Virus record (IMG/VR): IMGVR_UViG_3300028805_000039
Location: 191,852-239,565 of that record
Direction: 5' to 3' (one strand)
Source: a virus
Lineage: Duplodnaviria > Heunggongvirae > Uroviricota > Caudoviricetes
DNA length: 47,714 nt
Part shown: one piece after another, positions 3 to 37,907 of the stretch
Position numbering within the stretch: position 1 is the first letter of the stretch
Layout: every line of letters begins with the position of its first letter
Position numbers and translations under genes: made by a program
Notes under the pieces: model-generated
Databases searched by the model: none
Told to the model about the DNA's origin: nothing
What the model saw: only the letters and a program-made list of their open reading frames with translations

Positions 3-455
3 AATTGGCCGCATAAAACGCATTGTTATATTTTTCAAACTTATATTGTTACTTATGATGATTGTGAAATTAGGATAAGATATAGCGAGCCAGCTTTAGA
101 TCATCAAGGTAAGACAATTTCTCCTTATAAGTTTACTTATAAGAGTGGCGGCGATCTTAGTAGAATTGAAATTGAAAAAGAGTTAAAAGCTCGTGAGTAT
201 GAAGAATTGAAAAAGACAATATCTTATCCTGCAATTATAAAAGATTTTTATACTTTTCAATTTGATGGAAAATCAATAGAAATGTCATGTGTTGATAATG
301 ATTGGTATTATGCAGAAGTAGAATTTAACAATCTATTAGAGGCAGAAGCATATGATTTTCCTTGGCCAGAATTGGTTATTAAAGAAGTTACAGAAGATAA
401 AGAGTATAAGATGAAAAATTATTGGCGTAAGACTAGGCTAAAAGAGGAAATTTGA
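3..455 (+). CDS. CYTH-like (triphosphate tunnel) domain protein, 5'-partial (ORF open from window edge; track shows only TTG-start fragment 207..455)
   Basis: Frame open from nt 3; translation contains RIEIEKE / YAEVEFN EXEXK-like motifs; ends TGA 453-455. Confidence 0.35.
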   Translation, partial: NWPHKTHCYIFQTYIVTYDDCEIRIRYSEPALDHQGKTISPYKFTYKSGGDLSRIEIEKELKAREYEELKKTISYPAIIKDFYTFQFDGKSIEMSCVDNDWYYAEVEFNNLLEAEAYDFPWPELVIKEVTEDKEYKMKNYWRKTRLKEEI

Positions 456-5200: not shown

Positions 5201-6553
5201 ATGGGGCTAGCTGAAGAAAATAAAATTGAAAAAAAGAGTATGGGAAAATATTATACTCCAGATGATGTAGCTAATATTATGGCTTAGTATTTATTAGAAT
5301 TACCTGGTGATAATATTTGTGATTTATGTTGTGGAACAGGAAATTTAACTTTTGCCGTATTAAATTAGATGACTGATGATGAAGCTAAACAATTTATACT
5401 TAATGGTCATTTATATTTATATGATATTGATAATATAGCTATAAAAATTTGTTTAGCTATACTAAAAAATAGATATGGAGATATCGTAGATAATATCCAT
5501 ATTATAAATACAGATTGTTTAAAATCTGATGTTAATTTTCCTGATAATGTTAAAATTATTTCAAATCCTCCATATGGCAAAAATACTGATTTAGTAAATA
5601 ATATTTATAATTGTGCAAAAACTACAAAAGAATTATATGTTGCTTTTATGGAAAAAGCTCTTTATGCTAAAGTTCCATTTGTATTTATAACTCCTCATAG
5701 TTTTTTAGGTGGGAATACTTTTAAAGAGTTACGTAAAGAATTATATGGTGGAAAAATTTTTGCTTTTGATAATGTTCCTGGAAATATTTTTAAAGGTAAA
5801 AAATTTGGTATTTTCAATTCAAATGAAGCAAACTCAACTAGAGCAGCAATTTCTATTTTAAATCCTAATTCTAAGGATATTTATGTTGCTCCTTTTATTA
5901 GATTTAAAACAGAAGAACGTTCAAAAATTTTAAATAAAGAATTTTTAGATACATTGCTACCTGAAAAAGCACAAAGTAATACTGGAAATATCTATTATAG
6001 AATTTAGGCTGGAACAGAAGAAATTATTACTAAATGGTTAGATTCTAAAAATAAAAAATTTAGTAGTTTATTAGTTTCTACTCCTAATGAATATAAAATT
6101 GATATTCCAAATACTTGTAGATATTTTACTACTGGGGCTAAAAAAACTTTATCTAGAAGTGGTAAATTAACTATTTATTGTAAAGATGAAGATAGTTTTT
6201 ATTTAGCATATGCATTTATTAATTCTTCTTTATGTTATTACTGGCATCGAATGTGTAATGGTGGTATTACATATCCAATTACACTTTTGAAGGATATGCC
6301 TATTTTTGGATCAGCAACACAAGAATTAAAAAATTATTGTAATAAACTAATTGAAAATGAAGAAAAATATATAGTTTTAAAGAAAAATGCTGGAGCATAT
6401 TAGGAAAATATTAAATTTCCTATGGAAATGCGTTTTGAATTAACAGATATTCTTTTAAAACAAATAAATTTATCTAATAATATATCTTTAAAAAAGGTAC
6501 ATAATAATAGTTGTTTAACTACAACAATAGATAATATTATAGATGAAGAATAA
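5201..6553 (+). CDS. gamma-class N6-adenine DNA methyltransferase + TRD (Type IIG/HsdM-like), in-frame TAG codons (5288-5290, 5366-5368, 6005-6007, 6401-6403); conserved sequence extends upstream to ~5087 in the same frame without a start codon
   Basis: Motifs GKYYTPDDVANIM (X), DLCCGTGNL (I), ISNPPYGK (IV); HsdM-like LGGLYE upstream of first ATG; ends TAA 6551-6553. Confidence 0.7.
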
Positions 6554-6560
6554 AAAATTA

Positions 6561-6589
6561 TTGACATTTTAAAAAAAATATTATATAAT
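6561..6589 (+). promoter_or_regulatory. sigma70-like promoter copy 4 (TTGACA-17-TATAAT)
   Basis: TTGACA 6561-6566, TATAAT 6584-6589. Confidence 0.7.
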
Positions 6590-6802
6590 ATTTATAGAAA
6601 ATAAATAAAGGCATATACAGCAACCATTATATTTGTAAATTTTTAGAATTAAAATATATAAAAACAATTTTAGAAGCGTGGTTTCTTCTAACGACGATTA
6701 ATAAACTAGATTATTTCTCTAACAAGAGAAACACCGGAGATTTAGTCTTATTAACAGGTAAGTTTCTTTGTGCCTTGTTTTGGGATATTAATTCCCAATT
6801 AT

Positions 6803-6981: not shown

Positions 6982-7006
6982 TGATTTAAATAAAAAAATC
7001 TTTTAT

Positions 7007-7035
7007 TTGAAAAATTTAAAAAAATTTGATATAAT
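7007..7035 (+). promoter_or_regulatory. sigma70-like promoter copy 5 (upstream of tRNA-Pro)
   Basis: TTGAAA 7007-7012, TATAAT 7030-7035. Confidence 0.7.
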
Positions 7036-7073
7036 ATATATATAAAGTTAAGAAATAAATAAAAAATAAATTT

Positions 7074-7149
7074 CGGGGAGTAATTCAGTTGGTAGAATGC
7101 GTGATTTGGGATCACGATGCCGTGGGTTCGAGTCCCGCCTCTCCGACCA
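7074..7149 (+). tRNA. tRNA-Pro (anticodon TGG)
   Basis: CGGGGAG/CTCTCCG, D-arm ATTC-AGTTGGTA-GAAT, anticodon stem CGTGA/TCACG loop TTTGGGA, CCA. Confidence 0.8.
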
Positions 7150-7151
7150 TA

Positions 7152-7219
7152 AGACACATACAGCAACTTTTAAAGATACAATTTTTATGTTATCGGTTCA
7201 AGTCCGATTATGTCAGCCA
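7152..7219 (+). ncRNA. tRNA-like element (AAGACACATACAGCAAC 5' motif, perfect T-arm ATCGG-TTCAAGT-CCGAT, 3' GCCA) lacking a pairing 5' acceptor strand
   Basis: Directly follows tRNA-Pro; possible Y-RNA-like or degenerate tRNA. Confidence 0.3.
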
Positions 7220-7275
7220 TTAATTTGATGTATTATCCAATGGGTAGGATGAAAGAGTATGATGTGTCTAGATAT

Positions 7276-7432
7276 AGCCCCGTGGTGTAAAGGTAGCACA
7301 CTGGACTTGTCGATATGGTGTAATGGAAGCATAATTGAATGCCTCTTGTAATTGAGAGGAGGCGCTAGTTCGATTCTAGCTATCGGCTCCATGACTCCAA
7401 TGGTGTAGGTTCGAATCCTGCCGGGGCTGCCA
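7276..7432 (+). tRNA. tRNA-Gln (anticodon TTG) interrupted between nt 34 and 35 by an 83-nt insert (7309-7391)
   Basis: 5' half AGCCCCG-TG-GTGTAAAGGTAGCAC-A-CTGGA-CTT (7276-7308) and 3' half TGAC-TCCAA-TGGT-GTAGG-TTCGAAT-CCTGC-CGGGGCT-G-CCA (7392-7432) join to a canonical cloverleaf. Confidence 0.6.
7309..7391 (+). tRNA. tRNA-like gene nested inside the tRNA-Gln anticodon loop (identity unclear; possible 8-nt loop TGTAATTG with GTA)
   Basis: Acceptor GTCGATA/TATCGGC + T + CCA, perfect T-arm GCTAG-TTCGATT-CTAGC, D-arm GTG-TAATGGAAG-CAT. Confidence 0.45.
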
Positions 7433-7702
7433 TCCAAAATTAAGAAAGGTTTAAAAGTATGGAAAGATTATATTAGTTACATCATGGTGATGTTTTTACA
7501 GTTTCTGCTGATTTATTTTTAACCACTAATTGGAATGTTGATAATTTTAAATTTATAAAATATAATTTTTATTCTAAACCTTGGTGGAAATTTTGGGAAA
7601 AAAGAAAATTAAAAAATGTTTAGGTAATGTATGTCGGAAATGACACACAAAATAATTATCTTGTAACAAATGAAAAGAAATGTATTGAGGAGTTTTATAA
7701 AA

Positions 7703-7978
7703 ATGATTAGAACTAAAATTCGTTTGGAAACTAATAAAGAAGTTACTGCGTTTGTTAGTAAGTTAAATACTGATGGCAGTATTGATAAGTATATTGTTGA
7801 AGATGAGGAAGGTCGTCATCGTGTAAATGCTCGTTCTTATCTTGGTATGCTTTATGCTTCTGCTGAATTTGCTGGCAATATGTTCCTTGTAAATGAAACT
7901 GAAGATGGTAAGTTTCCTGCTTTTGTTTATGATTTTATGCCATTGAGCGAAAATGATGGAAATTATATCCATGAGTGA
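7703..7978 (+). CDS. hypothetical protein
   Basis: RBS GAGGAG then ATG 7703 (track ORF 7670..7978 same frame). Confidence 0.5.
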   Translation: MIRTKIRLETNKEVTAFVSKLNTDGSIDKYIVEDEEGRHRVNARSYLGMLYASAEFAGNMFLVNETEDGKFPAFVYDFMPLSENDGNYIHE

Positions 7979-8012
7979 TATTAATAATTTTCGTATTCTT
8001 GTTGAATAGGAA

Positions 8013-8129
8013 ATGTTAAAAATGGGAGCTTCTAATAGTGATTTTAGATTCATCCATGATGAAGCTATTATTAATACTATTAGAAGAAATGGCTCCCCTG
8101 AAGATTTAGCTTGGGCTTTATTACAATAA
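8013..8129 (+). CDS. small hypothetical ORF (38 aa)
   Basis: ATG 8013, TAA 8127-8129; weak. Confidence 0.25.
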   Translation: MLKMGASNSDFRFIHDEAIINTIRRNGSPEDLAWALLQ

Positions 8130-8132
8130 TTT

Positions 8133-8206
8133 ACTCCTATCGTATAATGGTAGTATAACTGGCTCTGAACCAGTGGGCCGAGGATCGAAACCTTGTGGGA
8201 GTGCCA
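8133..8206 (+). tRNA. tRNA-Gln (anticodon CTG)
   Basis: ACTCCTA/TGGGAGT, anticodon stem ACTGG/CCAGT loop CTCTGAA, G73+CCA. Confidence 0.7.
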
Positions 8207-8209
8207 GGA

Positions 8210-9080
8210 GTAGCAGGAATGGAAATCCTGTATAAATCTTCAATATGATGTGTCAGGAAGTAGGGTTAGGAGCTCATCTTTTAAAGAGCGATTTGCGGCA
8301 GCTGGGCAAATCCTTGCGCGCAAGCGACACTGACCGGGTTAGGGATTTACCTTGAAAATCTAACAAGATTTTTTCTTGTTGTGAGCCATAAGGTTTTGGC
8401 TTGATATAAACCTAGTGAGGTTTTTACCTCACTTATAATATATCGTGGAAGGCAAAGTAAACGAGCCGCCGTTATAATATGGGTATTGATAAACACCGCA
8501 ACAGCAATTATTTATTTGCTTGGGGAGCCGGTGATAGTTGGTGTAAGTCCAGCCCACGATGCCAGCCCGATTGGGCGGCGTCAATGATAACTAGACGAAA
8601 AATGTTATCTATATCGTAGGTGGGTTTATTAAACTGGCGATGAAGTTGCTTACTGTGGCAGATACAAGGTAAGCCGTTTCCAAAGACGAAATGATGGTAT
8701 GTTGGATAGAATATATTAAATAATGATTATTATCGCAGCTGTCTCACTGTGCTATGTAAATGAAATTCCCTTCTCTTGGTTCTAACATTAGAACTCCAAC
8801 TAATAATGATGAGAAACACTAAATATTTATTTAGAAGTATGGACTAAGGTTGTGGGCAAAAATGATTTTTTATATGTAATTTATTTTCAGAGGGTTAGGC
8901 TATAAATGCGGGATATGATTTGGTGTAATCGCGGGTGCGCACACTAGATACTCTTTTTAGAGTTAGAAGACTTAGGCAAAAACCACCTAAGAATCATAGG
9001 TTCAAGTAGGGCAACCGGAGCTTGGAAAGTTATGAAAATAATTATAATATAGAAAATCATTTTTGTTTTAATAAAAAAAC
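8210..9080 (+). ncRNA. candidate large structured non-coding RNA (ORF-free, GC-enriched, many hairpins, flanked by tRNAs)
   Basis: No ORF >=60 aa on either strand for ~1.4 kb; local GC far above genome background; hairpins e.g. AGTGAGG/CCTCACT, GATAAC/GTTATC. Confidence 0.4.
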
Positions 9081-9086
9081 TTTTAT

Positions 9087-9115
9087 TTGAATTTTATAAA
9101 AAAATATCATATAAT
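9087..9115 (+). promoter_or_regulatory. sigma70-like promoter copy 6
   Basis: TTGAAT 9087-9092, TATAAT 9110-9115. Confidence 0.65.
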
Positions 9116-9154
9116 ATATATGTAAATTAAATAAAAAAAAGGAAATTTAAAAAA

Positions 9155-9427
9155 ATGATTGATTTTAATAATTTAAAGTCTTATAAAGATTATTCTAAAT
9201 TAACTGGTGATGATATTCTTGAATTTATGCAAGAATAGACTAGAGATGATATTGAAGAATTTAAAGAGTTTTGTAAACCTCATACTGAAACTGATGAAAA
9301 TGGAATAACTCATGAATATTAGCCTAGATTTTTTGAAATTCGTAATTGGGTTTTAGATAAATATTATCCAGGTTTAACTACTCCAAAAAAGAATATAAGT
9401 TTTATAGAGCGTATTATGGATTTATAA
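9155..9427 (+). CDS. hypothetical protein (90 aa) with 2 in-frame TAG (9233-9235, 9323-9325)
   Basis: RBS GGAAA.., ATG 9155, TAA 9425-9427; codon-by-codon check. Confidence 0.5.
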
Positions 9428-9447
9428 AAAATTTGATAATTTTTAAA

Positions 9448-9476
9448 TTGATTTTTTATAAAAAAAATGTTATAAT
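9448..9476 (+). promoter_or_regulatory. sigma70-like promoter copy 7
   Basis: TTGATT 9448-9453, TATAAT 9471-9476. Confidence 0.65.
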
Positions 9477-9527
9477 ATATATGTAAATTAAATAAAAAAT
9501 AATTTTTTAGAAAAGGAATTGAATGAA

Positions 9528-9872
9528 ATGAATTATCCCCTGAGTAAGTACCGTTTTTATGAAGCTGGTAATAAGACTATTGCTGTTAGTACTTATGCTG
9601 GTAGACCTGTTCGTGGTATTTCAATTTGCCATGAAAATGATGATTTTAGTCTTGAAACTGGTAAGCTACTCGCGGCAGCACGTTGTAATGAAAAGATTTC
9701 TGCCAAGCGAGTTGCTCGTGCTAATATGAAAGTACGACAGGCACAGGCTGATCTTGAGAAGGCCCAGAAGCACCTTGAAAATATGAAGGCTTATCTAAAT
9801 GATGCAGTTATTGCATATAATGATGCCGGAATTGAAACTGATAAGATTATTGAGTCTCTAAGGGCTAAGTGA
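9528..9872 (+). CDS. hypothetical protein
   Basis: ATG 9528 in frame with track ORF 9519..9872; RBS AAGGA. Confidence 0.5.
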   Translation: MNYPLSKYRFYEAGNKTIAVSTYAGRPVRGISICHENDDFSLETGKLLAAARCNEKISAKRVARANMKVRQAQADLEKAQKHLENMKAYLNDAVIAYNDAGIETDKIIESLRAK

Positions 9873-9878
9873 AAAAAA

Positions 9879-9907
9879 TGCGGATTGATAAAATTTTTCA
9901 ATCCGCA
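9879..9907 (+). terminator. hairpin (TGCGGATTG...CAATCCGCA) after CDS, no strong T-run
   Basis: 9-bp inverted repeat. Confidence 0.35.
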
Positions 9908-9915
9908 GAAAGTAT

Positions 9916-9990
9916 CCTCCCTTGGTGTAATGGTAGCACGGGTGGCTCTAACCCACCAGGCGTTGGTTCGATTCCGAACAGGGAGTGCCA
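9916..9990 (+). tRNA. suppressor tRNA, anticodon CTA (reads UAG); probably Gln-derived
   Basis: Anticodon stem GGTGG/CCACC with loop CTCTAAC (CTA at 9948-9950); D-arm GTG-TAATGGTAG-CAC; T-loop TTCGATT; 3' AGGGAGT-G-CCA resembles the phage tRNA-Gln(CTG) end; acceptor has a C1/T72 mismatch. Confidence 0.7.
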
Positions 9991-9995
9991 TTGGC

Positions 9996-10024
9996 TTGAC
10001 TTTTATTAAAAAATTTGATATAAT
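9996..10024 (+). promoter_or_regulatory. sigma70-like promoter copy 8 (TTGACT-17-TATAAT)
   Basis: TTGACT 9996-10001, TATAAT 10019-10024. Confidence 0.65.
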
Positions 10025-10039
10025 ATATATGTAAATATT

Positions 10040-10260
10040 GCGGATTGGTGCAAAAGTTAACACGTCGGTCTCTGGGGCTATGGTGTAAAAAACATACTTG
10101 GAAAGCAAGGGCCTTGAGAAGTTGGGGCAGTACCAACTAGCTCCACCAAAAACCGAAGAACAGGGGGCGGTACCCTGATCCGCTGCCAACACGATAACAA
10201 ATAAGTGTATAAACGGATATGTGGCTGACGAACCTACTGTCATCTCCCTTCCTATGGTGA
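10040..10260 (+). ncRNA. GC-rich untranslated leader / candidate small RNA downstream of promoter 8
   Basis: ~220 nt without ORF; contains tRNA-like fragments (GGTGTAAA, ...GCTGCCA). Confidence 0.25.
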
Positions 10261-10366
10261 TAAAAAATGTTAAATTAGAATTTAATTTTTGAATTAATTT
10301 TTGCTTTTCCTGTGGTATTGTTTATTATAATATATATTTTTGGAAGCTTTAAGGAATGATATTCAG

Positions 10367-10465
10367 ATGTTAGAAATATTAGATTGGATTTTAATTTTTG
10401 GATTAACTTTTATACTTCCTATTGGATTATTCGTTATATTTGTTTTTAAAAATTTTAAGGAATGA
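10367..10465 (+). CDS. small hydrophobic peptide (32 aa)
   Basis: RBS AAGGAA, MLEILDWILIFGLTFILPIGLFVIFVFKNFKE. Confidence 0.4.
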   Translation: MLEILDWILIFGLTFILPIGLFVIFVFKNFKE

Positions 10466-10470
10466 TTTTT

Positions 10471-10818
10471 ATGTATAGAAAAAGAGCTTGGAGAAGATAT
10501 AAAAATTATATAAAAGCCAAAAGAAAAAGAGATATTGATTTAAATGATCGAATGTGGTGGGATTATTCAATTTATAATAATCCTATTAAACCTAGTTATT
10601 ATTCTCCAAATAGTAAGCCTAAATTTGGAATGTATGATAATCTTCACCAGTACAGTAAAAATAAAATTCATTGTAGTTGTCCTTGGTGTTCTCCACGCAC
10701 TCGTAATAAGGGGCGGCATAGAAATAAAAAGAATTATGCTCCATCTATTAATTATGGAATAATGGATAAACGAAGACAAATGGCAATGGATGATGATGAA
10801 AAAGAATTTTTTAATTGA
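10471..10818 (+). CDS. basic Cys-containing protein (CSCPWCSPR), hypothetical
   Basis: RBS AAGGAA, ATG 10471, TGA 10816-10818. Confidence 0.5.
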   Translation: MYRKRAWRRYKNYIKAKRKRDIDLNDRMWWDYSIYNNPIKPSYYSPNSKPKFGMYDNLHQYSKNKIHCSCPWCSPRTRNKGRHRNKKNYAPSINYGIMDKRRQMAMDDDEKEFFN

Positions 10819-11244: not shown

Positions 11245-11356
11245 AGACAGATACAGCAACTTCTTTTTAAAAAGAATTTTAGCATAATGGTAATGCATTT
11301 GACTTGTTAATCAAAATATACGGTTCAAATCCGTGATAACTCTTTTAATCTGTCTA
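11245..11356 (+). ncRNA. tRNA-like structured RNA (terminal 8-bp helix AGACAGAT/ATCTGTCT, D-arm-like AGCATAATGGTAATGC, T-arm TACGG-TTCAAAT-CCGTG); YrlA/Y-RNA-like candidate
   Basis: Not a canonical tRNA (T-arm not adjacent to terminal helix); shares ACAGCAAC motif. Confidence 0.35.
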
Positions 11357-12644: not shown

Positions 12645-14144
12645 ATGTCTAATTCTTTTATGAATGGTTTGCAGAATGCCACTAATTATGGCTATACTAC
12701 TAATGGTGCTCTTAGTCATAAGACCACTGGTAATGATTTGCTCGATATGTTCGCTCAGGCTGGCGCTTACCGTAGACGCACTGATAATGATTGCATTCTT
12801 CTTTTTAAGAATGCCTATATCGAGAATTCTAAGTATGCTCTTAAGTGTCTCTTCTATATGAGAGATATTCGTGGCGGTCAGGGAGAGCGTCGTTTCTTCC
12901 GTGTATGCTACAAGTGGCTGATTAGTTATGACAAGGCTGCGGCTAAGCGTAATCTTCAGTATATGAGCGAGTATGGTCGCTGGGATGATTTGCTTTATAT
13001 CTGTCAGGGCACTTCTCTTTGGAATGATGCAATGCAGATTGTTCGTTCTCAGCTTATGCTGGATATGGATAGTTGCAATCACAGCGATAAGACCGGTATT
13101 AGTTTGCTGGCTAAGTGGATGCCTAGTGAGAACACTTCTAGTGCTGTAACTAGAACTTTGGCTCATGAGGTTCGTACTGCTCTTGGTTTTAATCATCGTC
13201 AGTATCGTAAGACTCTTTCTGTGCTTCGTGATCGTTTGAACGTTCTTGAACGTTTAATGAGCGCTGGTCGTTGGGATGAAATCGAGTTCGATAAGATTCC
13301 TTCTAAGGCTGGTATGAAGTATAAGAATGCTTTTGCTCGTAGAGACATGATTGCTCAGAAGTATGAAAAGTTCGCTAAGGACGAAAATACTACTGTTAAT
13401 GCAAAGGCTCTCTATCCTTACGAAGTTGTTGAGCAGGCTCGCGCTTGCCGCGGAGCAGTTGACCGTGCTATGATTAATAAGTATTGGGATAATCTTGAAG
13501 ATTATTTCAATGGGGCTACTTTGGATGCTCTTTGCGTCATTGATACTTCTGGTTCTATGACTTGGGGCAGCAATCGTCCTTATCCTATTGATGTAGCAAT
13601 TTCTCTTGGCCTTTATTGTGCTGAAAGAGCCCGCGGTCCTTTCGCTGGGAATTACGTTTCCTTCTCTTCTCGTCCTCAGTTGATTCGTACTGAAGGTATT
13701 GATTTTGTTGATAAGGTATACCGTATCTATCGTACTAATCTTTGCCAGAATACGAACATTGAAGCTACTTTCGATTTGCTTCTTGATACTGCGATTCGTA
13801 ATCGTTGTAAGCAGGAAGATCTTCCTAAGTCTTTGATTGTTATTTCTGATATGCAGTTCGACCAGGCTCGCGGTGCTTATTACGGTGATCGTAGTTATGG
13901 TGTTAGAACTCTTATGGAAAGAATTGAAGGAAAGTGGAACCAGGCTGGATATAAGATGCCTAATCTTGTATTCTGGAATGTAAATGCTACTGCTAATCCT
14001 AATATGCCAATGGAAATGAAGGATGGCGTGTCTTACGTTTCTGGTTGCTCTCCTGTAATTTTCAAGCAGATTCTTACTGGGAAGACTGCGTTCGACCTTA
14101 TGTATGAAGTGCTTGATGCTGAGCGTTATACCGTTATCGGTTAA
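12645..14144 (+). CDS. vWA-domain protein with Ro60/TROVE-like N-terminal region (Rsr-like; or DUF2828-type)
   Basis: MIDAS DTSGSM, ..YVSFSS.., ..LIVISDMQF..; N-terminus TNGALSHKTTGNDLLDMFAQAG resembles Ro60 'NAGG..vsde.rL.rFl.lG'; no TAG. Confidence 0.5.
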   Translation: MSNSFMNGLQNATNYGYTTNGALSHKTTGNDLLDMFAQAGAYRRRTDNDCILLFKNAYIENSKYALKCLFYMRDIRGGQGERRFFRVCYKWLISYDKAAAKRNLQYMSEYGRWDDLLYICQGTSLWNDAMQIVRSQLMLDMDSCNHSDKTGISLLAKWMPSENTSSAVTRTLAHEVRTALGFNHRQYRKTLSVLRDRLNVLERLMSAGRWDEIEFDKIPSKAGMKYKNAFARRDMIAQKYEKFAKDENTTVNAKALYPYEVVEQARACRGAVDRAMINKYWDNLEDYFNGATLDALCVIDTSGSMTWGSNRPYPIDVAISLGLYCAERARGPFAGNYVSFSSRPQLIRTEGIDFVDKVYRIYRTNLCQNTNIEATFDLLLDTAIRNRCKQEDLPKSLIVISDMQFDQARGAYYGDRSYGVRTLMERIEGKWNQAGYKMPNLVFWNVNATANPNMPMEMKDGVSYVSGCSPVIFKQILTGKTAFDLMYEVLDAERYTVIG

Positions 14145-23614: not shown

Positions 23615-25096
23615 ATGAATTTAATATTCAATAATTTATTTGTTAAGCAATCTCAAAGTTATAATAGTTTACCAGCTATTGCTGTATTAAAACAATTATC
23701 TTCAATTCCTTCTTCTTATTATTCTTATACAATAAATAATGATATAATTAATATAAATTATATAAATTATTTATCAAATAACATTTCTACTCATACAGTA
23801 TCCTTTCCCTTATTAAATAATAATAATATAAATTTATCTATTGCGTCTTATTATATTAATAGTAATATTTTAATTCAAAATAATATTTCATTAAATCAAT
23901 CAAATTTAATTCCAGAAAATATTAAGAAAAATATTTCTCTTTTTAATATTATCGGGAATTTTATACCTAGTAATTACCGTCAATTTAGATTATTACCATC
24001 TATTTCTACTTATAATAATGAAAATATTTCATCAATTAGAGACATGTGTTTTTTAAGTTGGTTAGATTTATCTATAATTGATTTGCCATAGTGTAGTTAT
24101 ATTGGAAATAGTGCTTTTGCTGGTTGTTATAATCTTACTACAGTAAATTTTCCATAGTGTAGTTATATTGGAAGTTATGCTTTTTATAAATGTAATAGTC
24201 TTACTTCAATAAGTTTTCCATAGTGTAGTTATATTGGAAGTTATGCTTTTTGTAAATGTAATAGTCTTACTTCAATAAGTTTTCCATAGTGTAGTTATAT
24301 TGGAAGTCATGCTTTTTTTGATTGTCTTAGTCTTACTACAGTAAATTTTCCAATATGTAGTTATATTGGAAATGGTGCTTTTGCTGGTTGCTCTAATCTT
24401 ACTTCAATAAGTTTTCCAATATGTAGTTATATTGGAAATTATGCTTTTTAGAGTTGTATTAGACTTACAACAGTAGATTTTCCATTGTGTCCTTATATTG
24501 GAAGTTATGCTTTTTGCCGTTGTTCTAATCTTACTTCTGCAAATTTTCCATATTGTAGTTATATTGAAAGTTATGCTTTTTATAGTTGTATTAGACTTAC
24601 TTCAATAAATTTTCCAGTATGTAGTTATATTGAAAGTTATGCTTTTTATTGGTGTATAAATCTTACTACAGTAGATTTTCCATAGTGTAATTATATTGGA
24701 GATTATGCTTTTGGCCATTGTCCTAGTCTTACTTCAATAAATTTTCCAGTATGTAGTTATATTGGAGAGGGTGCTTTTAATTATTGTCCTAGTCTTACTT
24801 CAATAAGTTTTCCATAGTGTAGTTATATTGGAAGTCATGCTTTTTAGAATTGTCGTAATCTTACTACAGTAGATTTTCCATAGTGTAGTTATATTGGAAG
24901 TAGTGCTTTTTAGAATTGTTCTAGTCTTACTACTATTTATTTAAACTAGACATCACAAATATGTTCATTATATAATAGTGATGTATTTTCTAGTTGTAAT
25001 AAACTTCAATCAATTTATGTCCCACAAAGTTTAGTCGAAGCTTATCAAACCGATGCTCGTTGGAAATCATTATCAACTAAAATTATAGGTGTATAA
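23615..25096 (+). CDS. BspA-type LRR repeat protein, 13 x 66-nt repeats, ~12 in-frame TAG
   Basis: track ORFs 23615..24091 and 24485..24685 in same frame; repeat FP[*IVLY]CSYIGSYAF[*YCF].C.SLTSI.; ends TAA 25094-25096. Confidence 0.6.
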
Positions 25097-25176: not shown

Positions 25177-26712
25177 ATGAAGGATGTGAATATATTGAGT
25201 TATCAAATAATAATCCCTTCAGATGTTGCGCCATTGCGCGCCCCAGTTATTCCTACTTTAAGAATTATAGATGAAGATACAGCGGAAATATATGTAAAAT
25301 ATCCTTATTCTACATATGTATCAGGCAATATAAATATAGATTTAGATATTGGTAATACTTCAATAAAAGTAGATAGCGTTAAAATAAATAAATTAATTAG
25401 TTTTTTAGAAGGTAATTCTGAATTTGATTATAGTATAATATAGTAGTATAATAAAATAGGAATAGGATTATATAATAAATTTAATTCAAGAATTGCAAAT
25501 TTTCCATAGTGTACTTGTATTGGAAATAGTACTTTTTAGAATTGTTCTAGTCTTACTTCTGCAAATTTTCCATTATGTAATTATATTGGAAGTTATGCTT
25601 TTTAGAATTGTCTTAGTCTTACTTCAATAAATTTCCCATAGTGTAGTTATATTGGAAGTAGTGCTTTTTAGAATTGTCGTAATCTTACTACAGTAGATTT
25701 TCCATAGTGTAGTTATATTGGAAGTTTGGCTTTTGAGGATTGTGATAATCTTACTTCAATAAATTTCCCATAGTGTAGTCATATTGAAAGTTTGGCTTTT
25801 TATGATTGTGATAGTCTTACTTCAATAAGTTTTCCATAGTGTAGTTATATTGGAAATCGTGCTTTTTATGATTGTCGTAATCTTACTACAGTAGATTTTC
25901 CATAGTGTAGTTATATTGAAAGTAATGCTTTTTGCTATTGTCCTAGTCTTACTTCAATAAGTTTTCCATAGTGTAATTATATTGGAAGTTATACTTTTTA
26001 TAGTTGTATTAGACTTACTTCAATAAATTTTCCATAGTGTAATTATATTGGAGAGAGTGCTTTTTATTATTGTTCTAATCTTACTTCAATAAGTTTTCCA
26101 ATATGTAGTTATATTGGAAGTTATGCTTTTTAGAGTTGCTCTAATCTTACTTCAATAAATTTTCCATAGTGTAGTTATATTGGAGAGAGTGCTTTTTATA
26201 ATTGTCGTAATCTTACTTCAATAAATTTTTCATTATGTAGTTATATCGAGAATAGTGCTTTTTATCGTTGCTCTAATCTTACTTCAATAAATTTTCCAGT
26301 ATGTAGTTATATTGGAAGTTATGCTTTTTAGAGTTGTTATAGTCTTATTTCAGTAGATTTTCCATAGTGTAGTTATATTGGAGAGAGTGCTTTTTAGAGT
26401 TGTTATAGTCTTACTTCAATAAATTTCCCATAGTGTAGTTATATTGGAAGTTATGCTTTTTAGAGTTGCTCTAATCTTACTTCAATAAATTTCCCATAGT
26501 GTAGTTATATTGGAAGTCGTGCTTTTATGTCGTGTTCTCGTCTTACTACTATTTATTTAAACTAGACATCACAAGTATGTTCATTATATAATAGTTATGT
26601 ATTTTCTAGTTGTAATAAACTTCAATCAATTTATGTTCCACAAAGTTTAGTCGAAGCATATAGAAACCATAGCAGATGGCGTTATTTTTCTAATAAAATA
26701 ATAGGGATATAA
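25177..26712 (+). CDS. BspA-type LRR repeat protein with tandem TAG-TAG (25441-25446) and ~16 further in-frame TAG
   Basis: track ORF 25177..25443 continues in frame through the repeats to TAA 26710-26712. Confidence 0.55.
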
Positions 26713-26714
26713 AT

Positions 26715-26825
26715 AAAATAAAATAATAGGGATATAAATAAATAAAATAATTTTTAAATTATTATTTTATTTATTTATATCCCTATTATTTTATTTTATT
26801 TATATCCCTATTATTTTATTAGAAA
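26715..26825. repeat. perfect palindrome / bidirectional terminator between convergent LRR genes; centre of a ~1.4-kb diverged inverted duplication
   Basis: ATAAAATAATAGGGATATAAATAAATAAAATAATTTTTAAATTATTATTTTATTTATTTATATCCCTATTATTTTAT. Confidence 0.7.
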
Positions 26826-28572
26826 AATAACGCCATTGATAATTATTCTTATACATACTTATTAAACTTTGTGGAACATAAATTGATTGAAGTTTATTAC
26901 AACCAGAAAATACATAACTATTATATAATGAACATATTAGTGATGTCTAGTTTAAATAAATAGTAGTAAGATTAGAACAATCATAAAAAGCACCCTGTCC
27001 AATAGAACGACATATTGGAAAACTTACTGTAGTAAGACTAGAACAATTCTAAAAAGCCCAACTTTCAATATAACTACACTATGGAAAATCTACTGTAGTA
27101 AGATTACGACAATTATAAAAAGCACTACTTCCAATATAACTACATACTGGAAAATTTATTGAAGTAAGTCTAATACAACTCTAAAAAGCATAACTTTCAA
27201 TATAACTACACTATGGAAAACTTATTGAAGTAAGATTAGAACAATCCTAAAAAACCCTATTTCCAATATAACTACATCTTGGAAAATTTGCAGAAGTAAG
27301 ACTATTACAATTCAAAAAAGCATAACTTTCAATAGAACGACATATTGGAAAATTTGCAGAAGTAAGACTAGAACAATTCAAAAAAGCATAACTTCCAATA
27401 GAACGACATATTGGAAAATTTGCAGAAGTAAGACTAGAACAATTCAAAAAAGCACTCTCTCCAATATAACTACACTATGGAAAATCTACTGTAGTAAGAT
27501 TACGACAGTACTCAAAAACCCTACTTCCAATATAACTACATCTTGGAAAATTTGCAGAAGTAAGACTAGAACAATAGCCAAAAGCACCACTTCCAATCTA
27601 AGTGCACAATGGAAAATCTACTGTTGTAAGTCTAATACAATCATAAAAAGCAAGATTTCCAATCTCAGTGCACAATGGAAAACTTATTGAAGTAAGACTA
27701 TTACAATTATAAAAAGCCCAATTTCTAATATAACTACACTATGGAAAATCTACTGTTGTAAGTCTAATACAATTCTAAAAAGCATAACTTTCAATATAAC
27801 TACACTATGGGAAATTTATTGAAGTAAGACTAAGACAATCCTCAAAAGCCAAACTTCCAATATAACTACATACTGGAAAATTTATTGAAGTAAGATTACG
27901 ACAATCCTAAAAAGCACTACTTCCAATATAACTACATACTGGAAAATCTACTGTAGTAAGATTACGACAATTCAAAAAAGCATAACTTCCAATAGAACGA
28001 CATATTGGAAAATTTGCAGAAGTAAGACTAGAACAATTCTAAAAAGCACTATTCCCGATATAACTACACTATGGAAAATCTACTGTAGTAAGACTAAGAC
28101 AATTCTAAAAAGCATAACTTCTAATATAACTACACTATGGAAAATTTGCAGAAGTAAGATTACGACAATTATAAAAAGCACTACTTCCAATATAACTACA
28201 TACTGGAAAATTTATTGAAGTAAGTCTAATACAACTATAAAAAGCATTACTCTCAATATAACTACACTATGGAAAACTAATAGTAGTAATATTGCTAAAA
28301 TAAGCAAAGGCGGCAGCACGCACTGAAGTTATTGTTGAACCTATAAGATTTAAATTATCATCATTAAGATTGCCATTAACATAATCATAAAAAACATCAT
28401 ATATTAAACTCATACTTTTACTACTAATACCAGCATTAATAAAAGTAGAAGGGCCATAGTCAACATTAAAATTTATTTTATCTGGAAAAATAGTAATATT
28501 ATTATCCTTAATTTCAGGATTAATTCCAGATATTGTCCCACTAGGAATCTATAACTATATACTCAATATCAA
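26800..28572 (-). CDS. BspA-type LRR repeat protein (inverted paralog of 25177..26712), many in-frame TAG
   Basis: Frame shared with track ORF 27247..27447; TTG start overlapping upstream TGA (TTGA), RBS AGGAGAGG; stop TAA (plus 26800-26802). Confidence 0.5.
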
Positions 28573-36638: not shown

Positions 36639-37907
36639 ATGCTAAATAAAGATGGAGTTCGTGAACTTGCTTATGTTGTCCTTGTTGATGGGATTGAACC
36701 TATTCCTGGATATGATAGAGTAGAACATGCTCTTATTGGTGGTTGGCGAGTAATTGTGCAGAAGGACCAGTTTAAAGTTGGTGACCCAGCTATTTATTTT
36801 GAAATTGATAGTAAGGTGCCAAAGGATAGAGAATGTTTTTCCTTCCTTGAAAAGCGTAATTATAAGGTAAAGACCTTAAAGATGTGTAAAACTATTTCAC
36901 AGGGGCTTCTTATGCACGCAAGTGATTTCGGTTGGAAAGCTTATCGGGGTATGGATCCACCTTTTGATGAACCTGCTTGTATTATTGACGATAAAAATCA
37001 TTGTTATTATGTCGATGATGAATCTCGTTTCTTGACTTCTATTCTTGGCGTAACCTATGCCGATGATGAAGATAATGCTCGTAAGGCTCCTTCTGTTGAT
37101 AAGTATAAAAAGATGGCCCAGCGTCATCCTAATATCTTTAAGAAGTCTTGGGCACGCTGGATGATGAAGCGTGAGTGGGGTCGTAAGCTCATGTTTATGT
37201 TCTTCGGTAAGAAGAAAGATAAGAAAAATGGGTGGCCTTCTTGGGTTTCAAAGACCGATGAGGAGCGTGTACAGAATATGCCTTGGATTCTTAATGATAC
37301 TGGTAGTTGGGTTATTACTGAAAAAATTGATGGTAGTTCTACTACCTTTACTATGAAACGTGGTAAGCGTGGTAAAAATGAGTTTTATGTCTGTTCTCGT
37401 AATGTATGTTTTGATAGTGTAGATAAACCTTGCTATTATGACACTAATATTTACTGGGAAATGGCACAAAAGTATGATATGTATAATGTTCTTTCAAAAT
37501 TTCTTGAAGAGCATCCCGATATTGAATGGGTAACTATTCAAGGCGAGACCTTCGGTAATGGTATCCAAAAGAGAGATTACTCTATGACAGAGCATGATTT
37601 CCGAGCCTTCAATCTTATTACTCCTAATAAAGGTCGTTGGGGCACTATGGAAATGTATAATACATTATTCACAGCAAAATATCGTATTCCTTGTGTGCCA
37701 GTCATTAACAAAGATTTTCACTTTGATTCTCTTGATATGTTGAAGGACGATGACGATAGTAATAGAGTAGATACTCTTCTTAACTTAGCTACTGGTAATT
37801 CTCAAATTGATGGACTTCCTCGTGAAGGATTTGTTCTCCGTTCTGCGGATGGCACTAAATCTTTTAAAGCAGTAAGTAATAGTTTCCTTCTTAAATATCA
37901 TAGTTAA
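36639..37907 (+). CDS. ATP-dependent RNA ligase (Rnl-type nucleotidyltransferase)
   Basis: motif I EKIDGSS (KxDG), motif IV EGFVLR, motif V KSFKAV. Confidence 0.55.
   Translation: MLNKDGVRELAYVVLVDGIEPIPGYDRVEHALIGGWRVIVQKDQFKVGDPAIYFEIDSKVPKDRECFSFLEKRNYKVKTLKMCKTISQGLLMHASDFGWKAYRGMDPPFDEPACIIDDKNHCYYVDDESRFLTSILGVTYADDEDNARKAPSVDKYKKMAQRHPNIFKKSWARWMMKREWGRKLMFMFFGKKKDKKNGWPSWVSKTDEERVQNMPWILNDTGSWVITEKIDGSSTTFTMKRGKRGKNEFYVCSRNVCFDSVDKPCYYDTNIYWEMAQKYDMYNVLSKFLEEHPDIEWVTIQGETFGNGIQKRDYSMTEHDFRAFNLITPNKGRWGTMEMYNTLFTAKYRIPCVPVINKDFHFDSLDMLKDDDDSNRVDTLLNLATGNSQIDGLPREGFVLRSADGTKSFKAVSNSFLLKYHS

What the first reader, a model, noticed from the sequence alone, without database searches (positions are those of the whole stretch)
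8210..9080. ~870-nt ORF-free, GC-enriched, hairpin-rich region flanked by tRNAs: candidate large structured ncRNA
No ORF of 60 aa or more exists on either strand from 8054 to 9154, which stands out in a genome otherwise packed with genes. Local GC is far above background, with many stable hairpins (AGTGAGG/CCTCACT, GATAAC/GTTATC, CGCGGGTGCGCAC). It starts right after tRNA-Gln(CUG). Large ornate RNAs (ROOL/GOLLD-like) are often found next to phage tRNA arrays. A standalone group I/II intron fragment or RNase P-like RNA is also possible; none could be confirmed by hand.
Basis: inference. Interest (0 to 1): 0.6.

Follow-up and report, generated by a model that had tools for sequence, protein, structure and literature searches.

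The report
New large structured phage RNA family
The gene-free stretch after tRNA-Gln encodes an 860-nt, multi-domain folded RNA with a built-in tRNA look-alike; it belongs to a conserved phage RNA family that matches no catalogued RNA family and most resembles the enigmatic giant GOLLD and ROOL RNAs.

Summary
Window 8207-9066 (+) has no conserved ORF, even with TAG or TGA read through, and is GC-enriched (0.38 against 0.30). It starts at the CCA of tRNA-Gln(CUG). It ends in a ~34-bp terminal helix followed by a U-tract.

It is a real structured RNA. I found at least 35 distinct relatives in phage and metagenome contigs, in compact (~300-360 nt) and long (~730-860 nt) forms. Compensatory base changes support the helices:
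- 3' domain: 88% of cells paired, 70% in shuffles.
- Compact core, including a kissing-loop pseudoknot: 90% against 76%.
- tRNA-like module embedded in long forms (window 8442-8564; 7-bp acceptor stem, T arm, encoded CCA): 90% against 73%.

All members share a 3' domain: a closing helix, an invariant G-rich junction and a GNRA-capped hairpin.

No Rfam family matches at E<=10, including ROOL, GOLLD, RNase P, tmRNA and group I/II introns. The same tool finds a genuine ROOL (306 bits) in a related contig that also carries this RNA.

A Ro60-fold protein lies nearby. However, only 3 of 80 Ro60-like phage loci carry the RNA, and the Y-RNA motif is absent.

Best reading: a new class of large, modular phage tRNA-island RNA with GOLLD-like architecture. 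Its function is unknown.

The parts
7538..7566 (+). Promoter-like site (TTGATA-17-TATAAT). It probably starts the transcript that carries ORF 7670-7978, a 38-aa ORF, tRNA-Gln and the RNA.
   Evidence: Consensus scan, 11 of 12 matches. No comparable site lies between it and 8207. Its role is inferred.
8133..8206 (+). tRNA-Gln(CUG) with encoded CCA. The RNA begins at the next base.
   Evidence: ARAGORN and Rfam tRNA at 53 bits. tRNA-Gln is the nearest upstream tRNA in 17 of 27 family members with enough upstream sequence, and usually abuts the RNA.
8207..9066 (+). The whole structured RNA, long form, 860 nt.
   Evidence: Boundaries come from the tRNA CCA and the terminal helix plus U-tract. The family was defined. 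Strand: invariant G.U pairs and GNRA loops exist only on the + strand.
8207..8441 (+). 5' domain. It contains the P1 hairpin (GGAG 8207-8210 with CUUC 8238-8241; inner CAGGA/UCCUG 8214-8218/8226-8230), a GCAA-capped hairpin, a 7-bp GAUUUGC/GCAAAUC helix and a small pseudoknot.
   Evidence: RNAalifold on 10 long forms gives 39 pairs, 16 with compensatory changes. P1 covaries in compact forms too (helix 1).
8360..8435 (+). Expansion specific to this window: three hairpins, including AGUGAGG/CCUCACU. It is absent from the 97%-identical relative L073. Other relatives carry different inserts at the same site.
   Evidence: blastn gap and alignments.
8442..8564 (+). Embedded tRNA-like module. Acceptor stem AUCGUGG/CCACGAU (8442-8448 with 8554-8560), then G and CCA (8561-8564). 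D-like arm GGC[AAAGUAAACGA]GCC. T arm 8537-8553 (GUUGG-UGUAAGU-CCAGC). The anticodon arm is replaced by a three-way junction with a GAUA (GNRA) hairpin.
   Evidence: Four different fully complementary acceptor stems occur in relatives. Pair counts: 90% paired against 73% in shuffles, 14 pairs with changes on both sides. Model R2, built from these modules, scores 133 bits here and aligns end to end with five genuine tRNAs of the window. ARAGORN and the Rfam tRNA model do not call it.
8565..8855 (+). Central domain. It holds hairpin GAUAAC/GUUAUC followed by the conserved AGGUG and CUGGCG-AUGAAG strands shared with compact forms, helix GCUUAC/GUAAGC (8648-8653 with 8669-8674), helix GCAG/CUGU, a UCUC..UUGG..CCAA..GAGA junction, and hairpin CUAAAU/AUUUAG.
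   Evidence: RNAalifold on 10 long forms gives 49 pairs, 20 with compensatory changes.
8856..8889 (+). P10 5' strand. It pairs with 9033-9066 to make a ~34-bp A/U-rich helix, with one internal loop, that closes the 3' domain.
   Evidence: Read from the sequence and seen by chance in a cmscan alignment. In relatives the inner 10 bp take at least 7 different complementary sequences, and all 10 pairs change on both sides.
8890..9000 (+). G-rich junction: GAGGGU (8890-8895), then GG, GGG and GG strands. In this window variable hairpins are inserted at about 8915-8995.
   Evidence: GA(G/A/U)GG..GG..GG(G)..GG is present in all 35 unique members. The junction is 26-64% G and 0-19% C, so the Gs cannot be paired locally with Cs. 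The strands do not vary. A non-Watson-Crick role, possibly a two-tier G-quadruplex, is inferred.
9001..9026 (+). P13, the most conserved element: a hairpin UUCAAG-U / A / GG[GCAA]CC / GGA / G-CUUGGA with a GNRA loop and an asymmetric purine-rich internal loop. It is followed by the conserved AAGU.
   Evidence: The motif AAGTAGSGCAASCGGAGCTT retrieved the family. The S-S pair flips between G-C and C-G (10 and 8 sequences) and the outer pairs covary. R1 hit at 48 bits.
9033..9070 (+). P10 3' strand, ending in UUUUUGUUUU. This is the likely transcript end; a new promoter-like site follows at 9087-9115.
   Evidence: Sequence. The same ...UUUUUGUUUU end occurs in long-form relatives. Promoter scan. 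Termination is inferred.
12645..14144 (+). Context gene: a Ro60-like (TROVE plus vWA) RNA-binding protein, 3.6 kb downstream. In most compact-form loci it lies 87-440 nt from the RNA.
   Evidence: Pfam DUF2828 and DUF7788. PHROG 850 'RNA-binding protein'. AlphaFold model with pLDDT 76; its 10 best PDB matches are all Ro60, Rsr or the phage phiLo Ro60. Distances.

Best explanation
Window 8207-9066 (+) is a member of an uncatalogued family of large, modular, structured non-coding RNAs. They are encoded in the tRNA islands of big (contigs of about 120-200 kb), A/T-rich phages; this window and several relatives read TAG as sense.

Shown:
- The RNA follows a tRNA, usually tRNA-Gln, directly after its CCA.
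- It folds into many helices that keep pairing through compensatory changes.
- All members share a 3' domain: a long closing helix, an invariant G-rich multi-strand junction and a GNRA-capped hairpin.
- The 5' and central part is variable. Compact forms have a kissing-loop pseudoknot. Long forms, including this one, lack it and instead carry an embedded tRNA-like module with a 7-bp acceptor stem, a T arm and an encoded CCA.

Inferred:
- It is made as the tail of a transcript that starts at the promoter near 7538.
- tRNA-processing enzymes free its 5' end when they mature tRNA-Gln.
- It ends at the U-tract after the terminal helix.
- It acts in trans as a stable folded RNA particle, as GOLLD and ROOL do. 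It may self-assemble or act as a scaffold, and it may present its tRNA-like module to tRNA-handling or RNA-repair factors of the infected cell.

The biochemical function is unknown.
For: Family and distribution:
- The 3' motif plus blastn and nhmmer give at least 35 distinct members in IMG/VR and metagenome contigs. They fall into compact and long forms ranging from 99% to under 70% identity to the window.
- None of 19 motif hits in 185,579 species genomes shows a convincing 3' domain; the best is 26.6 bits.

Covariation:
- 3' domain: 88.3% paired against 70.3% in shuffles (0 of 500 reach it), 63 against 24 cells changed on both sides, slid controls 26-50%.
- Compact core, 56 pairs including the pseudoknot: 90.3% against 76.2%, 34 pairs changed on both sides, slid controls 33-46%.
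- tRNA-like module: 90.0% against 72.7%.
- Long-form 5' and central domains: 16 of 39 and 20 of 49 predicted pairs carry compensatory changes.

tRNA likeness: model R2 aligns the module and genuine tRNAs end to end.

Not coding.

Not a known family, in the same biological setting: no Rfam match at E<=10. A true ROOL (306 bits) sits in the tRNA island of related contig L002, which also holds a member of this family at 6714-6793 and upstream.

Parallel with GOLLD: conserved 3' region, variable 5' region, tRNAs in the linker, position downstream of a tRNA (PMC12286853).
Against: - There is no expression data. The transcript ends, processing and stability are all inferred.
- I found no helix that ties the 5' domain, the tRNA-like module and the 3' domain of the long form into one fold. 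RNase P or RNase Z cutting at the module could turn it into several RNAs.
- Compact and long forms share firmly only the 3' domain, P1, a hairpin-loop motif (CAAAGUNAAC) and the AGGUG / CUGGNG strands.
- Alignments were anchored by hand and all sequences come from related phages, so the shuffle controls overstate significance. The slid controls are the safer guide.
- GOLLD-like or ROOL-like behaviour (oligomeric cages) is analogy only.
Confidence: 0.75

Rival explanations
1. The stretch is a composite locus rather than one RNA. It would be cut into several independent small RNAs: a 5' structured piece, a 123-nt tRNA-like RNA released by RNase P and 3' processing, and a ~500-nt 3' piece. Only the 3' domain would be the conserved functional RNA.
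For: - The tRNA-like module has everything RNase P needs: a 7-bp acceptor stem, a T arm and NCCA.
- Compact forms do without the module.
- P10 closes only the 3' domain.
- No long-range helix linking the domains was found.
- The neighbourhood is full of separately processed odd tRNA-like units.
Against: - Order and co-inheritance of the domains are constant in all long forms.
- There is one terminator-like end and no internal promoter of good score.
- GOLLD is thought to keep its linker tRNAs covalently attached (PMC12286853).
Confidence: 0.2
2. It is the Y-RNA-like partner of the phage Ro60-like protein. It would tether that protein to a nuclease or to substrates, as bacterial YrlA and the phage phiLo Yrl RNAs do.
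For: - The DUF2828/DUF7788 protein has the Ro60 fold; its 10 best PDB matches have E 6e-7 to 3e-4.
- In 11 unique family loci it lies 87 nt to 3.6 kb from the RNA, usually immediately downstream. No locus with enough flanking sequence lacks it.
- Known bacterial and phage Y RNAs are encoded next to Ro60 and contain a tRNA-like domain. M. smegmatis YrlA has a 7-bp acceptor stem, is cut by RNase P and receives CCA (PMC4201824; PMC12135203).
Against: - Only 3 of 80 phage loci with a Ro60-like gene contain the RNA's 3' domain.
- 64 of those 80 loci hold tRNAs, so shared residence in tRNA islands explains the proximity.
- The median non-coding gap upstream of the Ro60-like gene is 95 nt.
- The GNCGAAN0-1G / CGAA motif is absent from the window and from 30 of 35 members, and is never at a homologous place.
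- There is no stem joining the 5' and 3' ends.
- It is 3 to 8 times the size of Y RNAs, and compact forms lack the tRNA-like module.
- A better Y-RNA candidate exists nearby: window 7152-7272, ~120 nt, with a tRNA-like domain whose acceptor stem is capped and whose ends pair.
Confidence: 0.15
3. It is a ribozyme. One option is a self-processing element that frees itself from the tRNA transcript. Another is a phage RNA enzyme acting on the unusual (permuted or nested) tRNA precursors of this island.
For: - It has a complex fold held by a pseudoknot, invariant unpaired nucleotides and size variation through peripheral expansions, as large ribozymes do.
- It sits among odd tRNA genes that need unusual processing.
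Against: - No match to any ribozyme family in Rfam at E<=10.
- No exons, no cleavage-site signature and no conserved core resembling P4 of RNase P or P7 of group I introns.
- The kissing loop of compact forms is dispensable in long forms.
Confidence: 0.07
4. It is a cis-acting leader, a riboswitch or other 5' UTR structure, that controls the downstream gene.
For: In compact-form loci the RNA ends 87-103 nt before the Ro60-like start codon, with no obvious terminator between them.
Against: - In the window and other long forms the RNA ends in a helix plus U-tract, and a fresh promoter-like site precedes the next gene.
- The downstream gene differs between loci: Ro60-like, a 114-aa protein, a 90-aa protein, or small inserted ORFs.
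- In L086 the Ro60-like gene is upstream.
- 300-860 nt is far beyond known riboswitches.
Confidence: 0.04
5. It is a decayed protein gene or the remnant of a mobile element, and the apparent structure is incidental.
For: Size varies through insertions at fixed sites, including a 76-nt insert specific to this window. Single-sequence folding z-scores are modest and similar on both strands.
Against: - No ORF under any tested code.
- No protein-level or DNA-level match in phage records.
- Dozens of base pairs are kept through double substitutions.
- Sequence motifs stay invariant across members that are otherwise under 70% identical.
Confidence: 0.02

Closest known systems
GOLLD RNA (Rfam RF01998)
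   Same: - A large (up to over 800 nt) phage or prophage RNA in tRNA islands, often directly downstream of a tRNA.
- A universally conserved 3' region with a variable 5' region.
- tRNAs sometimes lie inside its linker (PMC12286853). Here a tRNA-like module lies inside the variable part.
   Different: - No match to the GOLLD covariance model even at E<=10.
- The compact forms are only ~300 nt.
- The embedded element is a tRNA mimic without an anticodon arm, not a tRNA.
- Cage formation is untested.
ROOL RNA (Rfam RF03087)
   Same: A ~580-nt ornate RNA of phages and prophages near tRNA islands. A genuine ROOL lies in the same tRNA island of related contig L002.
   Different: - Different sequence and structure: no model match in the window or in L003.
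- The two RNAs co-occur in one phage contig, so they are distinct genes and not variants of one another.
Bacterial and phage Y RNAs (YrlA; phiLo Yrl1 and Yrl2)
   Same: - Encoded close to a Ro60-fold protein.
- Contain a tRNA-like domain.
- M. smegmatis YrlA has a 7-bp acceptor stem, is cut by RNase P and receives CCA (PMC4201824; PMC12135203).
   Different: - 3 to 8 times larger.
- No CGAA motif and no stem between the 5' and 3' ends.
- The tRNA-like module is missing from the compact forms that sit closest to the Ro60-like gene.
- The RNA is absent from 77 of 80 Ro60-like phage loci.
tmRNA and other tRNA mimics
   Same: An acceptor stem, T arm and CCA, with the anticodon arm replaced by other structure.
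   Different: - The replacement is only ~57 nt (two hairpins) and holds no tag reading frame.
- No G3.U70 pair.
- ARAGORN and the Rfam tmRNA models find nothing.

Membership tests
ROOL (RF03087) | Scores at or above the Rfam gathering threshold (99.1 bits) against the ROOL covariance model | tested here: not met
   No ROOL match in the window at the gathering threshold. None at E<=1 over 7000-10500, at E<=10 over 8195-9090, or in relative L003. Positive control: ROOL at 306 bits in L002.
GOLLD (RF01998) | Match to the GOLLD covariance model (conserved 3' half) | tested here: not met
   No match at E<=10.
GOLLD (RF01998) | Architecture: conserved 3' region, variable 5' region, next to or containing tRNAs, phage context | tested here: met
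   The 3' domain is shared by all 35 members and the 5' and central parts vary. tRNA-Gln abuts the RNA. A tRNA-like module is embedded. This is a resemblance in design, not evidence of homology.
GOLLD / ROOL | Forms homo-oligomeric RNA nanocages | not testable with these tools
   Needs in vitro transcription with size-exclusion chromatography, native gels or cryo-EM.
Y RNA / YrlA | Encoded adjacent to a Ro60 orthologue | tested here: inconclusive
   A Ro60-fold protein lies within 87 nt to 3.6 kb in 11 loci. But only 3 of 80 Ro60-like loci have the RNA, and both features live in tRNA islands.
Y RNA / YrlA | Conserved GNCGAAN0-1G (CGAA) motif in a bulged stem formed by the 5' and 3' ends | tested here: not met
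   The motif is absent from the window. It occurs in 5 of 35 members at non-homologous positions. No terminal 5'/3' stem was found; P1 and P10 are local.
Y RNA / YrlA | tRNA-like domain | tested here: inconclusive
   Present in long forms and absent from compact forms.
Y RNA / YrlA | Bound by the Ro60 protein | not testable with these tools
   Needs gel-shift assays or immunoprecipitation.
tRNA (RF00005) | Cloverleaf with an anticodon arm, recognised by tRNA finders | tested here: not met
   The module at 8442-8564 is not called by ARAGORN or by Rfam tRNA at E<=10. The anticodon arm is replaced by a three-way junction. The acceptor, D-like and T arms do align with real tRNAs under R2.
tmRNA | tRNA-like domain plus a tag reading frame and pseudoknots | tested here: not met
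   ARAGORN finds no tmRNA. No Rfam tmRNA hit in the region.
RNase P RNA, group I intron, group II intron | Match to the Rfam models (conserved catalytic cores) | tested here: not met
   No matches at E<=10. There are no flanking exons, since the tRNA-Gln is complete.
Protein-coding gene | A conserved open reading frame | tested here: not met
   No ORF of 60 aa or more. No spanning frame with TAG or TGA recoded. Frame-breaking indels between relatives. No gene called in an independent assembly.

The most novel reading that the evidence does not exclude
This would be a third, previously undescribed class of 'ornate' large phage RNA alongside GOLLD and ROOL. Its distinctive features are an invariant G-rich junction, possibly a two-tier G-quadruplex, and, in long forms, a covalently attached tRNA mimic carrying CCA. 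It could assemble into a higher-order particle or act as a decoy or scaffold for tRNA-directed host defence or repair factors during infection by stop-codon-recoded phages.
Probability: 0.45. Interest if true: 0.85.

Novelty: new variant of a known kind. Interest (0 to 1): 0.72.

Why it matters
Very few large, intricately folded non-coding RNAs are known in bacteria and phages. The functions of GOLLD and ROOL are still unknown, even though their cage-like structures have been solved.

A further class would help in three ways:
- It lives in the same tRNA islands and co-occurs with ROOL in one phage.
- It comes in a natural series from 300 to 860 nt.
- It carries a separable tRNA mimic.

Together these give a comparative handle on what such RNAs do in infection. 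The compact forms are small enough for structural work. The modular gains and losses (kissing loop against tRNA-like module) suggest which parts are core.

The locus also ties three things into one testable module: stop-codon recoding, exotic tRNA genes and a Ro60-like RNA quality-control protein.

Tried and rejected
- **DNA similarity to deposited phages.** No match for the region or for 25 kb of the window.
- **First DNA pattern, from the T arm (GGTGTAAGTCCAGCCCACGA).** No match in viral contigs.
- **RNAalifold on a raw MAFFT alignment of compact forms.** It recovered only P1, P5 and P13. The helices had to be found by hand and then tested by pair counts.
- **RNase P idea.** ACAGCAGGCUUAGCA and GCGCAAGCGG resemble P4 and P12 strings. 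I dropped it because the polarity of the pairing differs and Rfam finds nothing.
- **Group I idea.** It rested on AAGGUG...CAGAACUAGCG. I dropped it because there are no exons, there is no Rfam hit, and the supposed P7 partner turned out to be the 5' strand of P10.
- **A kissing loop in the window (GCCAG/CUGGC).** Withdrawn. CUGGCG aligns with the conserved CUGGAG strand of compact forms, not with their pseudoknot strand. Long forms lack both partners.
- **Hammerhead-like GAUGAGAAAC in the central domain.** No Rfam support.
- **Species-genome scan with the 3' motif.** It gave 19 hits. I estimate about that many by chance, and none has a convincing 3' domain.
- **Obligate Ro60 partnership.** Tested and weakened.
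- **Literature searches for DUF2828 and for new large phage RNAs.** Neither turned up a description of this family.
- **Habitat of the source.** It could not be established with the tools.
Full report
**1. The observation**

The window is A/T-rich (GC 0.298) and phage-like.
- It reads TAG as sense. Many long frames carry 2-22 in-frame TAGs, and there is a suppressor tRNA(CUA) at 9917-9986.
- It holds at least 12 tRNA genes.

Between 8054 and 9154 there is no start-to-stop ORF of 60 aa or more under table 11. Because of the recoding I repeated the scan with TAG and/or TGA read through. No frame spans the region. The longest is 104 codons on the minus strand (8429-8743) when TAG alone is read through, and 163 codons (8339-8830, minus strand) when only TAA stops. 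It is broken by indels in relatives.

GC is 0.384, the 95th percentile of 860-nt windows, and is highest in the first two thirds. tRNA-Gln(CUG) ends at 8206 and the element begins at 8207. Folding energy of the single sequence is only about 2.8 sd below shuffles on either strand. Thermodynamics alone would therefore not have settled the question.

**2. Known families**

Rfam 15 gives no match in the region. This holds at gathering thresholds, at E<=1 over 7000-10500 and at E<=10 over 8195-9090. A compact relative also gives nothing credible. ARAGORN finds no tmRNA. Deposited phage genomes contain nothing similar.

**3. Relatives**

I used two routes.
- The 102-aa protein upstream (7670-7978) led to five IMG/VR contigs of 22-166 kb. 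In two of them the protein is followed by a ~330-nt non-coding stretch whose 3' end matches window 8997-9030.
- That 3' motif (AAGTAGSGCAASCGGAGCTT) retrieved more viral contigs and 81 metagenome stretches.

blastn, nhmmer and a junction filter leave at least 35 distinct members. The rest are chance hits in G+C-rich DNA. This was confirmed with a covariance model, which matches only the 20-nt motif there.

Members form two groups:
- Compact, ~300-360 nt: L001, L003, L007, L009, L010, L011, L046, L057, L061, L067, L086 and others.
- Long, ~730-860 nt: the window, L073, L028, L063, L029, L025, L089, L034, L040, L087. L002 carries a variant loop.

A scan of one genome per bacterial and archaeal species gave only chance-level motif hits. 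On present evidence the family is confined to phage-like contigs.

**4. Anatomy**

*3' domain, shared by all members.*
- A closing helix, P10. Its inner 10 bp take at least seven unrelated complementary sequences.
- An invariant G-rich junction, GA(G/A/U)GG..GG..GG(G)..GG. It is 26-64% G and almost without C.
- Optional variable hairpins.
- The P13 hairpin, with a GCAA loop and a purine-rich internal loop, followed by AAGUA.
- On an 18-sequence alignment, 88.3% of cells pair against 70.3% in shuffles (0 of 500 reach it) and 26-50% when the partner is slid. All 10 P10 pairs change on both sides, and the pair closing the GNRA loop flips between G-C and C-G.
- In the window P10 is ~34 bp (8856-8889 with 9033-9066) and runs into UUUUUGUUUU. 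A new promoter-like site follows at 9087-9115. The same ending occurs in other long forms.

*Compact core.*
- P1 right after the tRNA.
- P2, with a conserved loop ACAAAGUNAACAAA.
- P3, whose loop (UGCUAG or UGCUAAG) pairs with a downstream CUAGCG or CUUAGCA. The G-C to A-U switch is compensated.
- P5, then P10 and P13.
- Over 56 pairs: 90.3% paired against 76.2% in shuffles, slid controls 33-46%, 34 pairs with changes on both sides.

*Long forms.*
- They lack both strands of the kissing loop. This joint loss fits the two strands being partners.
- They carry instead a larger 5' domain: 39 predicted pairs, 16 compensated.
- They have a central domain: 49 pairs, 20 compensated.
- They have an embedded tRNA-like module.

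*The tRNA-like module in the window (8442-8564).*
- Acceptor stem AUCGUGG/CCACGAU, then G-CCA.
- A D-like arm whose loop is the same CAAAGUAAAC motif.
- T arm GUUGG-UGUAAGU-CCAGC.
- In place of the anticodon arm, a three-way junction with a GNRA hairpin.
- Relatives have UAGGGAU/AUCCCUA, GGGAGAU/GUCUCUC, GGGGAAU/AUUCCUC and GCGGGAA/UUCCCGC.
- Pair counts: 90.0% against 72.7%, slid controls 38-50%.
- A covariance model built from these modules aligns end to end with five genuine tRNAs of the window.
- Neither ARAGORN nor the Rfam tRNA model calls the module.

*Strand.* Invariant G.U pairs, such as the U.G in P13 in 18 of 18 sequences, and the GNRA loops exist only on the + strand. The same is true of the tRNA orientation.

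*Window-specific expansion.* The window has a private 76-nt expansion (8360-8435) that is missing from the 97%-identical L073.

**5. Context**

- tRNA-Gln is the nearest upstream tRNA in 17 of 27 informative members and usually touches the RNA. Elsewhere a small ORF, another tRNA or a promoter with a leader hairpin precedes it.
- The protein at 12645-14144 (Pfam DUF2828 and DUF7788; PHROG 'RNA-binding protein') models with the Ro60 fold. Its ten best PDB matches are Ro60, Rsr and the Ro60 of Thermus phage phiLo.
- That protein lies 87-440 nt from most compact forms and 3.6 kb from the window RNA.
- Among 80 other phage loci with this protein, only three have the RNA's 3' domain. 64 contain tRNAs. 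The usual upstream gap is ~95 nt.
- The YrlA/Yrl hallmark motif (PMC4201824; PMC12135203) is not conserved in the family.
- A separate ~120-nt unit at 7152-7272 has the YrlA-like layout: a tRNA-like domain, a capped acceptor stem and paired ends. It is a better Y-RNA candidate.
- Related contig L002 has a full ROOL (306 bits) in its tRNA island and also a member of this family.

**6. Interpretation**

The region is a bona fide large structured RNA of a family absent from Rfam 15. I found no description of it in the searchable literature.

Its design is closest to GOLLD as described in PMC12286853:
- a conserved 3' domain;
- a variable, expandable 5' part;
- a position just after a tRNA;
- a tRNA-like insert;
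- residence in a phage tRNA island.

It is not a member of GOLLD or ROOL by the model test.

I commit to a trans-acting, stable, folded RNA that tRNA processing releases from a tRNA-Gln transcript. Its function is unknown. The likeliest arena is tRNA and RNA-repair biology of the infected cell. The main rivals, in order, are:
- a composite locus processed into several RNAs;
- a Y-RNA-like partner of the Ro60-like protein;
- a ribozyme;
- a cis-acting leader;
- a decayed gene.

**7. Caveats**

- All relatives come from one phage lineage, so the number of independent changes is smaller than the cell counts suggest.
- Alignments were anchored by hand.
- Model-size limits prevented a full-length covariance model.
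- Nothing is known about expression.

**8. Verdict**

I rate novelty as a new variant (new class) of a known kind, and interest at 0.72.

Noticed in passing
window 7152-7272 (+); same unit type in L001 ~5740-5850, L003, L010, L011: A ~120-nt unit in which a T arm, the acceptor 3' strand and GCCA come before the acceptor 5' strand and D arm. The outer ends pair as AGACACAU/AUGUGUCU. After swapping the halves, ARAGORN calls a tRNA. It is either a circularly permuted tRNA gene or a YrlA-type Y RNA with a capped acceptor stem. The second reading would make it the likely partner of the Ro60-like protein.
   Followed up: partly
window 7276-7429 (+): A tRNA (Rfam 48.6 bits) with an 86-nt insertion in its anticodon loop. 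The insert itself looks like a tRNA, with D arm, T arm and its own CCA, so this may be a tRNA nested inside a tRNA. ARAGORN missed it.
   Followed up: partly
window 10040-10187 (+), promoter-like site at 9996-10024: A second GC-rich non-coding element with paired ends GCGGAUU...GAUCCGC followed by UGCCA. It has a D-like GGUGCAAAAGUUAACACG, the same CAAAGUNAAC motif as in the target, and a T-like hairpin. It is conserved in relatives, which showed up as spurious tblastn hits of the antisense ORF 9791-10243. It gives a weak alpha_tmRNA hit (17.5 bits) and is not found by model R2.
   Followed up: partly
window, whole; tRNAs at 9917-9986 and 11273-11344: TAG is read as sense in many genes, up to 22 in-frame TAGs in 25177-26712. 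A suppressor tRNA(CUA) is present. A further tRNA-like gene has an 8-nt anticodon loop; ARAGORN reports the anticodon as 'tgtt'.
   Followed up: partly
L002 1868-2458 (+): A full-length ROOL RNA (306 bits) in the tRNA island of a related phage contig. That contig also carries a member of the new family at about 6280-6800.
   Followed up: yes
L025 and L089 (tRNA-like module); L080: The acceptor-stem halves are mismatched within each contig but perfectly complementary between contigs. L025 has 5' GCUGCAU and 3' AUCCUCA; L089 has 5' UGAGGAU and 3' AUGCAGC. This points to two co-existing variants that were recombined or chimerically assembled.
   Followed up: partly
window 12645-14144 (+) and 36639-37907 (+): A Ro60-fold (TROVE plus vWA) protein annotated only as DUF2828/DUF7788, and an RNA ligase (Pfam RNA_ligase, PHROG 968). 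Together with the tRNA array these form a phage RNA-repair and quality-control set.
   Followed up: yes
L001 6700-7101 and 7804-8889: The Ro60-like gene of this relative is split by a ~700-nt insert. This could be an intron or a homing-endonuclease insertion.
   Followed up: no
window 6561-6589, 7007-7035, 7538-7566, 9087-9140, 9448-9500, 9996-10024: A repeated promoter-like cassette (TTGAnn-17-TATAAT, followed by ATATATGTAAATTAAATAAAAAA) stands in front of most small transcription units of the island. In relatives, tRNAs are preceded by leader hairpins GAGAGACACAnnCAGCAAAU...GUGUCUCG.
   Followed up: no
window 23615-25096, 25177-26712 (+) and 26800-28413 (-): Three paralogous proteins built from ~23-aa FPxCSYIGxxAFxxCxxLTS repeats. 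They have the heaviest TAG use in the window (11-22 per gene).
   Followed up: no
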